In this document: one piece after another, positions 1-1,224 of the stretch
How the letters are laid out: every line of letters begins with the position of its first letter
Position numbering within the stretch: position 1 is the first letter of the stretch
NCBI RefSeq assembly: GCF_003334335.1
Contig: NZ_QOWQ01000117.1
Reading direction: 5' to 3' (one strand)
Length of the DNA stretch: 1,224 nucleotides
Source of the DNA: Escherichia coli
GTDB taxonomy: Bacteria; Pseudomonadota; Gammaproteobacteria; Enterobacterales; Enterobacteriaceae
The notes under the pieces: model-generated
What the model saw: the letters and a program-made list of their open reading frames with translations, nothing else
What the model was told of the DNA's origin: nothing
Databases searched by the model: none
Program-made: the position numbers and the translations under genes

Positions 1-991
1 TAATGAAATTCCGCCGCCGCGCTCCATCACATTCCATATCTGGACGGCGTACAGTCCGTTCACCACCTGGGTACAGATTGTCTATGACTGGCTGGATGCA
101 CTGAAAGATCCCAACGGCCTGAAAACCTTTGTGAACACCACGCTGGGCGAGACCTGGGAAGAGGCCGTGGGCGAAAAACTCGATCACCAGGTGCTGATGG
201 ATAAGGTTGTGCGTTACACGGCTGCGGTGCCTTCCCGGGTGGTTTATCTGACGGCGGGCATTGACTCGCAGCGAAACCGTTTTGAGATGTATGTCTGGGG
301 ATGGGCTCCGGGAGAGGAAGCCTTTCTGGTGGATAAAATCATCATTATGGGGCGTCCCGATGAGGAAGAGACGCTGTTACGTGTGGATGTGGCGATCAAC
401 AAAAAATACCGCCATGCAGACGGAACCGAAATGACCATTTCCCGTGTCTGCTGGGACACCGGGGGGATCGATGGCGAAATTGTCTATCAGAGGTCAAAAA
501 AACACGGTGTTTTCCGGGTGCTGCCGGTAAAAGGTGCATCTGTTTATGGCAAGCCGGTGATCACCATGCCAAAAACCCGCAATCAGCGGGGCGTGTATCT
601 GTGCGAAGTGGGGACGGACACCGCAAAAGAAATTCTCTATGCCCGTATGAAAGCCGATCCCACGCCTGCGGATGAAGCCACGTCGTATGCCATCCGTTTT
701 CCTGATGATCCGGAGATTTTTTCGCAGACAGAGGCGCAGCAACTGGTCGCGGAAGAGCTTGTGGAGAAGTGGGAAAAAGGAAAGATGCGTCTGCTGTGGG
801 ATAACAAAAAGCGGCGTAACGAAGCGCTGGACTGCCTGGTGTATGCCTACGCGGCATTACGTGTGTCCGTGCAACGCTGGCAGCTTGATCTGGCTGTACT
901 GGCAAAATCCCGGGAAGAAGAGACGACCCGGCCAACCCTTAAAGAACTGGCAGCGAAGCTGTCCGGAGGAGTGAATGGTTACAGTCGCTGA
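1..991 (+). CDS. A: Terminase large subunit (lambda gpA-like), C-terminal portion; 5'-partial, reading frame begins at position 2, stop TGA at 989-991
   Basis: The frame is open from the first full codon at position 2 through 989-991. The ORF track starts it at GTG 131, but that GTG is an internal valine codon: the 43 codons upstream are stop-free, read as plausible protein (…FHIWTAYSPFTTWVQIVYDWLDALKDPNGLKTFVNTTLGETWEE…), and no Shine-Dalgarno motif precedes 131. From memory, the Trp-rich acidic sequence and the …TLKELAAKLSGG tail resemble the lambda gpA family. It is immediately followed by a gpW-like gene, which is lambda gene order (A-W-B). Confidence 0.88.
   Translation, partial: NEIPPPRSITFHIWTAYSPFTTWVQIVYDWLDALKDPNGLKTFVNTTLGETWEEAVGEKLDHQVLMDKVVRYTAAVPSRVVYLTAGIDSQRNRFEMYVWGWAPGEEAFLVDKIIIMGRPDEEETLLRVDVAINKKYRHADGTEMTISRVCWDTGGIDGEIVYQRSKKHGVFRVLPVKGASVYGKPVITMPKTRNQRGVYLCEVGTDTAKEILYARMKADPTPADEATSYAIRFPDDPEIFSQTEAQQLVAEELVEKWEKGKMRLLWDNKKRRNEALDCLVYAYAALRVSVQRWQLDLAVLAKSREEETTRPTLKELAAKLSGGVNGYSR
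965..970 (+). promoter_or_regulatory. Shine-Dalgarno sequence for the gpW-like gene, embedded in the terminase coding region
   Basis: GGAGGA lies 4-5 nt upstream of ATG 975, a perfect match to the anti-SD complement. Confidence 0.7.
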
Positions 992-1181
992 ACTGCAGGC
1001 GCTGCGTCAGGCGCGCCTTGATTTATTAACCGGTAAACGGGTGGTGTCTGTCCAGAAAGATGGTCGCAGAATTGAATATACGGCGGCTTCTCTGGATGAG
1101 CTTAACCGGGCGATCAATGATGCGGAGTCGGTACTGGGGACAACCCGGCGTCGCCGTCGTCCGCTGGGAGTGAGGTTATGA
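975..1181 (+). CDS. W: Head completion / head-tail joining protein, gpW family (68 aa)
   Basis: ATG at 975 is preceded by GGAGGA (965-970) and the ORF ends at TGA 1179-1181. The product MVTVAELQALRQARLDLLTGKRVVSVQKDGRRIEYTAASLDELNRAINDAESVLGTTRRRRRPLGVRL is 68 aa, the same length as lambda gpW. As I recall lambda gpW, it shares the core L-x-TGKRV-x-x-VQKDGRR-x-E-[FY]-TA-x-S and a C-terminal Arg cluster. It sits directly after the terminase large subunit gene. Confidence 0.9.
   Translation: MVTVAELQALRQARLDLLTGKRVVSVQKDGRRIEYTAASLDELNRAINDAESVLGTTRRRRRPLGVRL
1166..1175 (+). promoter_or_regulatory. Shine-Dalgarno region for the downstream (portal-like) gene, embedded in the 3' end of W
   Basis: GGGAGTGAGG contains GGGAG 7 nt upstream of ATG 1178 and GAGG 2 nt upstream of it; the start overlaps the W stop codon. 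Confidence 0.6.
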
Positions 1182-1224
1182 AACGAACGCCTGTCCTGAT
1201 TGATGTGAACGGCGTTCCGCTTCG
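1178..1224 (+). CDS. Start of the next head gene, probably portal protein (gpB-like) by synteny; 3'-partial (MKRTPVLIDVNGVPLR…)
   Basis: ATG at 1178 overlaps the W stop (ATGA, 1178-1181) and is preceded by GGGAG/GAGG at 1166-1175. The frame is open to the window edge. Only 15 codons are visible, so the portal assignment rests on lambda-like gene order, not on sequence similarity. Confidence 0.55.
   Translation, partial: MKRTPVLIDVNGVPL

What the first reader, a model, noticed from the sequence alone, without database searches (positions are those of the whole stretch)
1..991. Window captures the terminase C-terminal region expected to carry the portal-docking tail
In lambda gpA the extreme C-terminal segment (about the last 30 residues) has been reported as required for prohead/portal binding, and a basic/leucine-rich segment just upstream has been proposed as a zipper-like motif. 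Here the corresponding region reads …KWEKGKMRLLWDNKKRRNEALDCLVYAYAALRVSVQRWQLDLAVLAKSREEETTRPTLKELAAKLSGGVNGYSR, a basic cluster followed by a Leu/Ala/Val-rich amphipathic stretch and an acidic/Thr-Pro linker. How far this tail diverges from lambda would indicate the portal specificity of this phage.
Basis: partly seen in the sequence, partly recalled or inferred. Interest (0 to 1): 0.3.

Follow-up and report, generated by a model that had tools for sequence, protein, structure and literature searches.

The report
Phage 21-type terminase C-terminal half
The window holds the nuclease half and portal-docking tail of the large DNA-packaging enzyme of a phage 21-like E. coli prophage, a gene whose tail function was mapped decades ago by swapping it with phage lambda's, so the finding is correct but ordinary.

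Summary
Bases 2-991 (+ strand) encode the last 329 residues of a gpA-family large terminase, and the quoted peptide is exact.

The DNA is 100% identical to an E. coli prophage and 98.9% identical to phage 21. The protein is 98% identical to phage 21 gp2, and its last 106 residues are identical. Related sequence is found in 1,954 of 5,426 complete E. coli genomes.

Residues 10-289 match Pfam GpA_nuclease (E = 9e-72). The predicted fold matches solved terminase nucleases.

The final 32 residues form the tail. They are 31% identical to lambda, against 65% for the nuclease domain. The tail has two short helices, a polar linker and a flexible nine-residue end. This is the segment that lambda/21 hybrid genetics defined as the prohead-binding specificity domain.

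- The "basic/leucine-rich zipper" lies inside the nuclease domain and carries invariant residues corresponding to lambda E586 and D589.
- The gene immediately downstream is gpW, not the portal.
- The conserved "SGG" near the tail's end is also the ribosome-binding site of gene W.

This is an already known feature, and interest is low.

The parts
2..991 (+). 3' half of the large terminase gene (phage 21 gene 2 / lambda A homologue). It encodes residues 314-642 of a 642-aa protein. The stop codon is at 989-991.
   Evidence: ORF and translation. 98% identical to phage 21 gp2 and 63% to lambda gpA. Annotated as terminase large subunit in phage 21, PhiR5_1 and E. coli genomes.
29..868 (+). gpA-type endonuclease domain with a predicted RNase H-like fold (window aa 10-289).
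   Evidence: Pfam PF20454 GpA_nuclease, E = 9.2e-72. AlphaFold2 mean pLDDT 93.4. Foldseek top hits are Sf6 gp2, HK97 TerL, the HCMV UL89 and HSV UL15 nuclease domains, and RuvC.
263..265 (+). Asp88, the equivalent of lambda gpA D401. Invariant acidic residue of the nuclease domain, inferred to be catalytic.
   Evidence: Invariant in 91 family members. Position mapped to lambda by the pairwise alignment.
455..457 (+). Asp152, the equivalent of lambda D465. Invariant acidic residue.
   Evidence: Invariant in 91 family members.
806..880 (+). Basic cluster KKRR (aa 269-272) followed by the long conserved helix NEALDCLVYAYAALRVSVQR (aa 273-292). The helix carries invariant Glu274 and Asp277, the equivalents of lambda E586 and D589. 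This is the stretch once proposed to be a 'leucine zipper'.
   Evidence: Lies inside the Pfam nuclease match. E274 and D277 are invariant and R272 nearly invariant. Predicted helix 274-293 with pLDDT ~98. 73% identical to lambda over aa 261-297.
893..988 (+). C-terminal tail (aa 298-329, AVLAKSREEETTRPTLKELAAKLSGGVNGYSR). By homology this is the prohead/portal-binding specificity segment.
   Evidence: Identical to the phage 21 gp2 tail. 30.6% identical to the lambda tail, against 65.3% for the rest of the protein. Most family matches end before it. Predicted helices 297-309 and 313-320; the last 9 residues have pLDDT ~60.
938..967 (+). Conserved short amphipathic helix and turn, LKELAAKLSG (aa 313-322). 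The family pattern is [LMI]-x-x-[LYVIM]-[AGY]-x-x-[LM]-[SGA]-G.
   Evidence: Alignment of 17 distinct tail types. Predicted helix 313-320 with pLDDT ~90.
965..971 (+). Shine-Dalgarno sequence GGAGGAG of gene W, embedded in the terminase codons for Gly322-Gly323-Val324.
   Evidence: Annotated as a ribosome-binding site in M81255 (record 2777-2781 = window 965-969). The same arrangement is present in every tail type examined.
975..1181 (+). Gene 3, the gpW-type head-tail adaptor (Ad1), 68 aa. It overlaps the end of the terminase gene by 17 nt.
   Evidence: ORF. 55% identical to lambda gpW, E = 1e-19. PHROG 75 'head-tail adaptor Ad1', E = 3e-29. Matches PDB 1HYW gpW.
1178..1224 (+). First 15 codons plus two further bases of the portal gene (phage 21 gene 4 / lambda B homologue). 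There is an ATGA stop/start overlap with gene W.
   Evidence: Annotation in phage 21 and PhiR5_1. The full PhiR5_1 portal matches the lambda portal chain 8K38_A at E = 2.5e-214.

Best explanation
The window is the 3' half of the large terminase (TerL) gene of a phage 21-type lambdoid prophage of E. coli, followed by the gpW adaptor gene and the start of the portal gene.

The encoded 329 residues form the endonuclease domain, which nicks cosN. This domain has an RNase H-like fold. Its invariant acidic residues D88, D152, E274 and D277 correspond to lambda D401, D465, E586 and D589.

A 32-residue C-terminal tail follows the domain. It consists of a short helix, a charged Thr/Pro-containing linker, a conserved amphipathic helix (LKELAAKL) and a flexible nine-residue end (SGGVNGYSR).

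By homology with lambda gpA, the tail is the tether that docks the terminase-DNA complex onto the portal dodecamer of the prohead. Docking lets the ATPase motor start translocating DNA.

The tail is the fastest-diverging part of the protein and is phage-type specific. The 21-type end is neutral to basic, whereas lambda's end (SGEDE) is acidic. This matches the known inability of lambda and 21 terminases to use each other's proheads efficiently.

Shown here: gene identity, domain boundaries, conserved residues, predicted fold, the tail's divergence and its linkage to portal type. Inferred: physical binding of the tail to the portal, and which tail residues set the specificity.
For: - Identity. 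The window is 100% identical at the nucleotide level to an E. coli prophage and 98.9% identical to phage 21. The protein is 98% identical to phage 21 gp2, and all five differences lie upstream of residue 224. It is 63% identical to lambda gpA. Gene order is Nu1-A-W-B.
- Nuclease domain. It matches Pfam GpA_nuclease over aa 10-289. D88, Q90, D152, E274 and D277 are invariant across 91 diverse relatives. The AlphaFold2 model has mean pLDDT 93.4, and its best PDB matches are terminase nuclease domains.
- Tail divergence. It is 30.6% identical to lambda, against 65.3% for the domain. Database matches usually end at aa ~286-313.
- Tail architecture. It is conserved across 17 tail types. The predicted helices are 297-309 and 313-320, and the last 9 residues are of low confidence.
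- Linkage to portal type. In 59 distinct viral loci, tail type always travels with nuclease and portal type, and the tail diverges faster than either.
- Literature. [quoted passage not shown] Truncating the last few codons of lambda A abolishes prohead binding (PMC4856287). C-terminal residues of TerL contact the portal in lambda, P22, T3, T4 and phi29 (PMC10810279).
Against: - No binding was measured or modelled here, because no multimer prediction is available.
- No solved structure exists for any gpA-type terminase (PMC9410871). The fold and the tail conformation are therefore predictions.
- The tail's co-variation with the portal is what tight genetic linkage alone would give, since the genes lie within ~2 kb. 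It is not independent evidence of co-evolution.
- Conservation of the 'SGG/SGE' residues may reflect the overlapping ribosome-binding site of gene W rather than a protein interface.
- In the HK97 motor the nuclease domain body itself sits against the portal clip (PMC10359639). The tail may therefore not be the only contact.
Confidence: 0.9

Rival explanations
1. The tail is mainly a flexible spacer. Its apparent conservation comes from nucleotide-level constraints: its last codons double as the ribosome-binding site and start region of gene W. On this view, portal contact is made chiefly by the body of the nuclease domain.
For: The codons for S-G-G, S-G-E or L-G-G at the end of TerL contain GGAG(G/A) 5-10 nt upstream of the W start codon in every tail type examined. 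In the 21 type the last five terminase codons overlap the W reading frame. In the HK97 packaging complex the nuclease domains sit directly under the portal clip (PMC10359639). The last 9 residues have low model confidence.
Against: A nonsense mutation a few codons from the end of lambda A abolishes prohead binding (PMC4856287). The conserved amphipathic helix LKELAAKL lies upstream of the ribosome-binding site and keeps its hydrophobic pattern across 17 tail types whose other residues differ. A tail of some kind is present in all 91 diverse family members, with a median length of 34 aa.
Confidence: 0.08
2. The basic/Leu-rich stretch (aa 269-304) is an independent leucine-zipper or coiled-coil module. 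It would dimerise two TerL subunits on the symmetric cosN site, or bind DNA, and this rather than portal docking would be the main role of the C-terminal region.
For: Hydrophobic residues occupy a/d-like heptad positions (L276/L279, Y283/L286, V290/W293, L297/L300), as read directly from the sequence. [quoted passage not shown]
Against: The stretch lies inside the Pfam nuclease domain. It begins with the family-invariant residues E274 and D277. The model breaks the helix at aa 294-296. At the lambda leucine-heptad positions (L588, L595, I602, L609, L616) the 21 type reads L-Y-V-L-R, not a leucine repeat. This reading concerns aa 269-304 and does not conflict with a docking role for aa 305-329.
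Confidence: 0.15
3. The gene is a decaying remnant in a defective prophage and no longer functions.
For: Many truncated and chimeric 'terminase' proteins from E. coli genomes appear in the protein search. Fused or frameshifted copies exist (L025 and L075).
Against: The reading frame is intact to the native stop. The protein fragment is identical to that of the phage PhiR5_1, whose record names E. coli C as host. The W and portal starts are intact, with their overlaps preserved. Only 1.2 kb is visible, so the state of the rest of the element cannot be judged.
Confidence: 0.05

Closest known systems
Phage 21 terminase large subunit gp2 (GenBank M81255, AAA32340; genus Jouyvirus)
   Same: 98% identical over the 329 residues, with the last 106 residues, including the whole tail, identical. 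The gene order is the same (gene 2, gene 3, gene 4) with the same 17-nt and 4-nt overlaps.
   Different: Five substitutions, written as window residue, position, phage 21 residue: N1D, S78A, V130A, T153I and A223V. All lie in the nuclease domain. The window protein fragment is identical to that of phage PhiR5_1, and the window DNA is identical to an E. coli DETEC-S792 prophage.
Phage lambda gpA (NP_040581), C-terminal endonuclease domain plus prohead-binding tail
   Same: 63% identical overall. The domain order and the acidic residues (D401, D465, E586, D589) are the same. The tail has the same length (32 aa after 'QLDL') and the same architecture, including the T-L-x-x-[LY]-A-x-x-L-S-G helix.
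   Different: The tail is only 30.6% identical. After 'LSG', lambda ends in acidic EDE, giving the last 12 residues a net charge of -3. The 21 type ends in GVNGYSR, with a net charge of +2. The overlap with gene W is 4 nt in lambda and 17 nt here. From the literature, the two have different prohead-binding specificities.
Solved large-terminase nuclease domains (Sf6 gp2 4IFE/5C15, HK97 TerL 6Z6D, HCMV UL89 3N4Q, HSV pUL15 4IOX)
   Same: The predicted RNase H-like fold matches them with Foldseek probability 0.96-1.00 (1.00 for the six best hits).
   Different: Sequence identity is only 10-13% and TM-scores are ~0.3-0.55. None is detectable by sequence search. The gpA domain is larger, ~290 aa against ~220.

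Membership tests
gpA-family large terminase (Pfam PF20454 GpA_nuclease + PF05876 GpA_ATPase) | Significant match to the GpA_nuclease profile across the whole domain | tested here: met
   E = 9.2e-72, query aa 10-289 against model positions 3-287 of 294. Also PHROG 15 'terminase large subunit', E = 1.3e-154.
gpA-family large terminase (Pfam PF20454 GpA_nuclease + PF05876 GpA_ATPase) | Conserved acidic residues of the RNase H-like nuclease centre (lambda D401, D465, E586, D589) | tested here: met
   D88, D152, E274 and D277 are invariant in a 91-sequence alignment with 30-94% identity to the query. They map onto the lambda residues through.
gpA-family large terminase (Pfam PF20454 GpA_nuclease + PF05876 GpA_ATPase) | RNase H-like fold resembling solved terminase nuclease domains | tested here: met
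   AlphaFold2 model with mean pLDDT 93.4. The best PDB matches are all terminases, followed by RuvC. This rests on a prediction, not an experimental structure.
gpA-family large terminase (Pfam PF20454 GpA_nuclease + PF05876 GpA_ATPase) | N-terminal packaging ATPase domain in the same polypeptide | not testable with these tools
   This part lies upstream of the window. Near-identical full-length genes are 642 codons long (PhiR5_1 and phage 21). Close relatives carry PF05876 together with PF20454.
gpA-family large terminase (Pfam PF20454 GpA_nuclease + PF05876 GpA_ATPase) | Lambda-like head-gene synteny: small terminase, large terminase, gpW, portal | tested here: met
   gpW and the portal start are in the window. 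Nu1/gene 1 lies upstream in phage 21 and PhiR5_1.
Lambda/21-type C-terminal prohead (portal)-binding specificity domain | Located in the last ~32-38 residues, directly after the conserved 'RWQLDL' end of the nuclease domain | tested here: met
   Tail aa 298-329 aligns column for column with the last 32 residues of lambda gpA.
Lambda/21-type C-terminal prohead (portal)-binding specificity domain | Sequence is of the phage 21 specificity type | tested here: met
   100% identical to the phage 21 gp2 tail.
Lambda/21-type C-terminal prohead (portal)-binding specificity domain | Physical, type-specific binding to the cognate portal protein | not testable with these tools
   Known only from genetics and biochemistry in lambda and 21 (Frackman 1984 and Yeo & Feiss 1995, cited in PMC9026076).
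bZIP / leucine-zipper DNA-binding motif (Davidson & Gold 1992 proposal for gpA) | A basic region followed by one continuous helix with Leu at every seventh position over 4-5 heptads, forming an independent module | tested here: inconclusive
   The positions equivalent to lambda L588, L595, I602, L609 and L616 read L276, Y283, V290, L297 and R304. The model breaks the helix at aa 294-296. The stretch lies within the nuclease domain and carries invariant E274 and D277. An a/d-type hydrophobic pattern persists, so a coiled-coil contact cannot be excluded.

The most novel reading that the evidence does not exclude
The short terminal peptide after the conserved amphipathic helix may be a linear docking motif that sets prohead specificity by charge and aromatic content. 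The 21 type reads GVNGYSR, lambda reads EDE, and most distant gpA-family members carry a basic and often Trp-containing end such as ...RRRGGFVQGWR.

This peptide might occupy a portal clip groove that is later taken over by the similarly basic/hydrophobic C-terminus of the gpW adaptor (...RRRRRPLGVRL). That would amount to a sequential hand-off at the portal. Lambda's acidic end would then be the outlier in the family.
Probability: 0.12. Interest if true: 0.4.

Novelty: already known. Interest (0 to 1): 0.08.

Why it matters
It matters little for discovery. This is one of the best-studied packaging enzymes. The exact tail sequence is that of phage 21, the phage used to define the prohead-binding specificity domain of lambda terminase. 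The segment is present in about a third of complete E. coli genomes.

Two modest points of value remain:
- No gpA-type terminase has a solved structure, although the lambda portal and gpW do. A terminase-portal complex for lambda or 21 would therefore still be informative.
- The overlap between the tail's conserved 'SGG' and the ribosome-binding site of gene W should be kept in mind when tail conservation is read as evidence of a protein interface.

Tried and rejected
- **Original papers.** I tried to read Sippy & Feiss 1992 (PMC206162), Wu et al. 1988 (PMC1203432) and Ortega et al. 2007 (PMC2082050). None is held. The exact domain size (32-38 residues) and the hybrid-phage details therefore rest on my own knowledge and on citations in later Feiss papers.
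- **Further literature searches.** Searches found no held paper that states the lambda/21 prohead specificity result in its own words.
- **Sequence search of the PDB.** It found no gpA-type structure; the only hit was a chance match at E = 0.92.
- **Non-coding features.** An Rfam scan at E <= 1 found nothing. No direct or inverted repeats of 14 nt or more were found. There were no promoter-like sites and only four weak terminator-like hairpins, all inside coding sequence. I rejected an RNA or regulatory element as an explanation of the region.
- **Minus-strand ORFs.** ORFs of up to 124 aa at 561-935 lie entirely antisense to the strongly conserved terminase frame. I did not pursue them.
- **Test for natural mosaics.** I looked for loci with a 21-type nuclease and a lambda-type tail or portal, or the reverse. 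None was found among 59 distinct loci. The co-variation is uninformative about co-evolution because of genetic linkage.
- **Fused-chain modelling.** I considered an AlphaFold run of portal plus tail as a single fused chain and decided against it. A monomeric portal with a shallow alignment would not give an interpretable result in either direction.

Full report
**1. What is in the window**

Frame 2 of the + strand is open from base 2 to a TGA stop at 989-991.

A 68-codon gene follows at 975-1181 and overlaps the first gene by 17 nt. A third gene starts at 1178 with an ATGA stop/start overlap and runs off the end of the window.

No Rfam family matches the window, and it has no repeats and no promoter-like sites. 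The minus-strand ORFs all lie antisense to a strongly conserved coding frame.

**2. Identity**

- The whole window is 100% identical to a prophage segment in E. coli DETEC-S792. It is 99.9% identical to phage PhiR5_1 and 98.9% identical to phage 21. In these records the three genes are annotated as terminase large subunit (gene 2/A), head completion or head-tail joining protein (gene 3/W) and portal (gene 4/B).
- Related DNA occurs in 1,954 of 5,426 complete E. coli genomes, usually in more than one copy.
- The protein is 98% identical to phage 21 gp2 residues 314-642. All five differences lie upstream of residue 224, so the last 106 residues are identical to phage 21.
- Against lambda gpA it is 63% identical, aligned with gpA residues 315-638.
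- The second gene is 55% identical to lambda gpW and matches the Ad1 adaptor family and PDB 1HYW.

**3. Domain anatomy**

Pfam GpA_nuclease covers residues 10-289 at E = 9.2e-72. The family is very large: 5,182 representatives at E <= 0.001 in a library clustered at 50% identity.

In a 91-sequence alignment with 30-94% identity to the query, the invariant residues are D88, Q90, D152, G178, G204, E274 and D277. The pairwise alignment maps the four acidic ones to lambda D401, D465, E586 and D589.

An AlphaFold2 model built on that alignment has mean pLDDT 93.4. Its best matches among solved structures are the large terminases of Sf6 and HK97 and the herpesvirus terminase nuclease domains, followed by RuvC. 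The fold is therefore RNase H-like. [quoted passage not shown]

**4. The 'zipper'**

The long helix 274-293 begins with invariant E274 and D277 and is among the best conserved parts of the protein. It is 73% identical to lambda over aa 261-297, and the 30-residue window 271-300 reaches 77%.

At the positions of lambda's heptad leucines the 21-type protein reads L276, Y283, V290, L297 and R304. The model breaks the helix at 294-296. An a/d-like hydrophobic pattern remains, and the Feiss laboratory still proposes a parallel coiled coil for this helix (PMC9026076). A dimerisation role therefore cannot be excluded. The stretch is nonetheless not a module separate from the nuclease.

**5. The tail**

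After the conserved 'RWQLDL', identity to lambda falls to 30.6% (11 of 36 aligned columns), against 65.3% for residues 1-297. This makes the tail the most divergent segment of the protein.

Most database matches end between query residues 286 and 313. Every one of the 91 aligned relatives has some tail. The median length is 34 aa, with a range of 7-85. The tails are enriched in Pro, Lys, Arg and Gln.

Among enterobacterial relatives the architecture is conserved:
- a short helix (LxxLxxS);
- a polar linker of variable length;
- an amphipathic helix fitting [LMI]-x-x-[LYVIM]-[AGY]-x-x-[LM]-[SGA]-G;
- 0-8 type-specific residues at the very end.

The model predicts helices 297-309 and 313-320 at pLDDT of about 90 or more, and a low-confidence final nine residues.

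The two ends differ in charge. The last 12 residues carry a net charge of +2 here and -3 in lambda. In the wider family 66 of 91 ends carry +2 or more, and 42 of 91 have a Trp in the last ten residues.

**6. Function**

[quoted passage not shown] A nonsense mutation a few codons from the end of gene A removes prohead binding (PMC4856287). C-terminal TerL residues contact the portal in several phages (PMC10810279).

From my own knowledge, the specificity domain was mapped with lambda/21 hybrid phages to the last 32-38 residues of gpA. This is supported by the titles cited in those papers: Frackman 1984, Wu 1988, Sippy & Feiss 1992 and Yeo & Feiss 1995. The mapping worked because lambda and 21 terminases discriminate between each other's proheads.

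The window's tail is the phage 21 tail, residue for residue.

**7. Linkage with the portal**

In 59 distinct viral loci carrying a complete nuclease domain, tail and portal (1,711 pairs), no locus combines one tail type with another portal or nuclease type. The tail always diverges fastest:

| Nuclease identity | Tail identity | Portal identity |
|---|---|---|
| 0.87 | 0.63 | 0.85 |
| 0.64 | 0.30 | 0.61 |

The genes are adjacent, so this is compatible with co-evolution but does not demonstrate it.

**8. A confound**

The codons for the conserved S-G-G, S-G-E or L-G-G at the end of TerL contain the Shine-Dalgarno sequence of gene W in every tail type examined. Here it is GGAGGAG at 965-971, with the W start codon at 975. 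It is annotated as a ribosome-binding site in M81255. In the 21 type the last five terminase codons also lie within the W reading frame. Conservation of these residues therefore cannot be read simply as evidence of a protein interface.

**9. Verdict**

Three points need correction: the zipper lies inside the nuclease domain, gpW sits between the terminase and portal genes, and the ribosome-binding site overlaps the tail's conserved end. The feature is already known and very common, so interest is low.

The remaining open point is structural. The lambda portal and gpW are solved, but no gpA-type terminase or terminase-portal complex is.

Noticed in passing
window 962-991: The terminase tail and gene W are dual-coded. 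The Shine-Dalgarno sequence GGAGGAG of gene W lies in the terminase codons Gly322-Gly323-Val324, and the last five terminase codons overlap the W frame by 17 nt (lambda has only a 4-nt overlap). In all 30 distinct tail/context variants that had a detectable W gene, the terminal 'G-G/G-E/G-D' codons supply the ribosome-binding site.
   Followed up: yes
window 530-556 (aa 177-185, KGASVYGKP): This is a P-loop-like G-x4-G-K motif inside the nuclease domain and corresponds to lambda gpA K497. G178 is invariant across the family, and Y182 and G183 are nearly invariant in the 16-sequence alignment A1, but the Lys is not. From my own knowledge, K497 has been linked to an ATP-responsive site of the maturation domain.
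   Followed up: partly
L025 (IMGVR_UViG_2703718846_000005), from ~4001 to the end of the ORF: This terminase ORF runs from '...AAALSGG' straight into a C-terminal portal sequence (YSSARASANESW...). That implies a deletion fusing TerL to the 3' part of the portal gene, so the element is presumably defective.
   Followed up: no
L075 (IMGVR_UViG_2884398328_000004), terminase 3' end: The tail reads ...KTLADYARALP and then continues for ~90 unrelated residues. This looks like a frameshift just before the conserved 'LSG' and the gene W start.
   Followed up: no
protein hits (e.g. P0049, P0058, P0068, P0092, P0098): Many E. coli 'terminase gpA endonuclease subunit' proteins are chimeras. They combine part of the nuclease domain with tail-fibre assembly, minor tail protein L, major capsid or portal domains (PF02413, PF05100, PF03864, PF05136). 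These are probably deletion scars in decaying lambdoid prophages.
   Followed up: no
tails of distant gpA-family proteins in alignment A2: Outside the enterobacterial lambda/21 group the extreme C-terminus is usually a basic run followed by a Gly/aromatic motif (e.g. ...RRRGGFVQGWR...KRKGGWARNW...SFATNWRES). Trp occurs in the last 10 residues of 42 of 91 proteins. Lambda's acidic end is atypical. The C-terminus of gpW (...RRRRRPLGVRL) has a similar basic/hydrophobic character.
   Followed up: partly
window 999-1015 (+), and 576-590 and 409-423 (-): Four weak terminator-like hairpins were found, against 1.0 +/- 1.0 expected from shuffles. All lie inside coding sequence, and the two on the + strand overlap each other within gene W. 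They are probably chance matches.
   Followed up: no
lambda locus L003 2613-2636, compared with PMC4856287: [quoted passage not shown] The last codons of lambda A are GCC TTA TCC GGA GAG GAT GAA TGA. Only GAG (third-to-last sense codon) can become TAG by a single base change. The counting in the paper and the reference sequence do not obviously agree.
   Followed up: no
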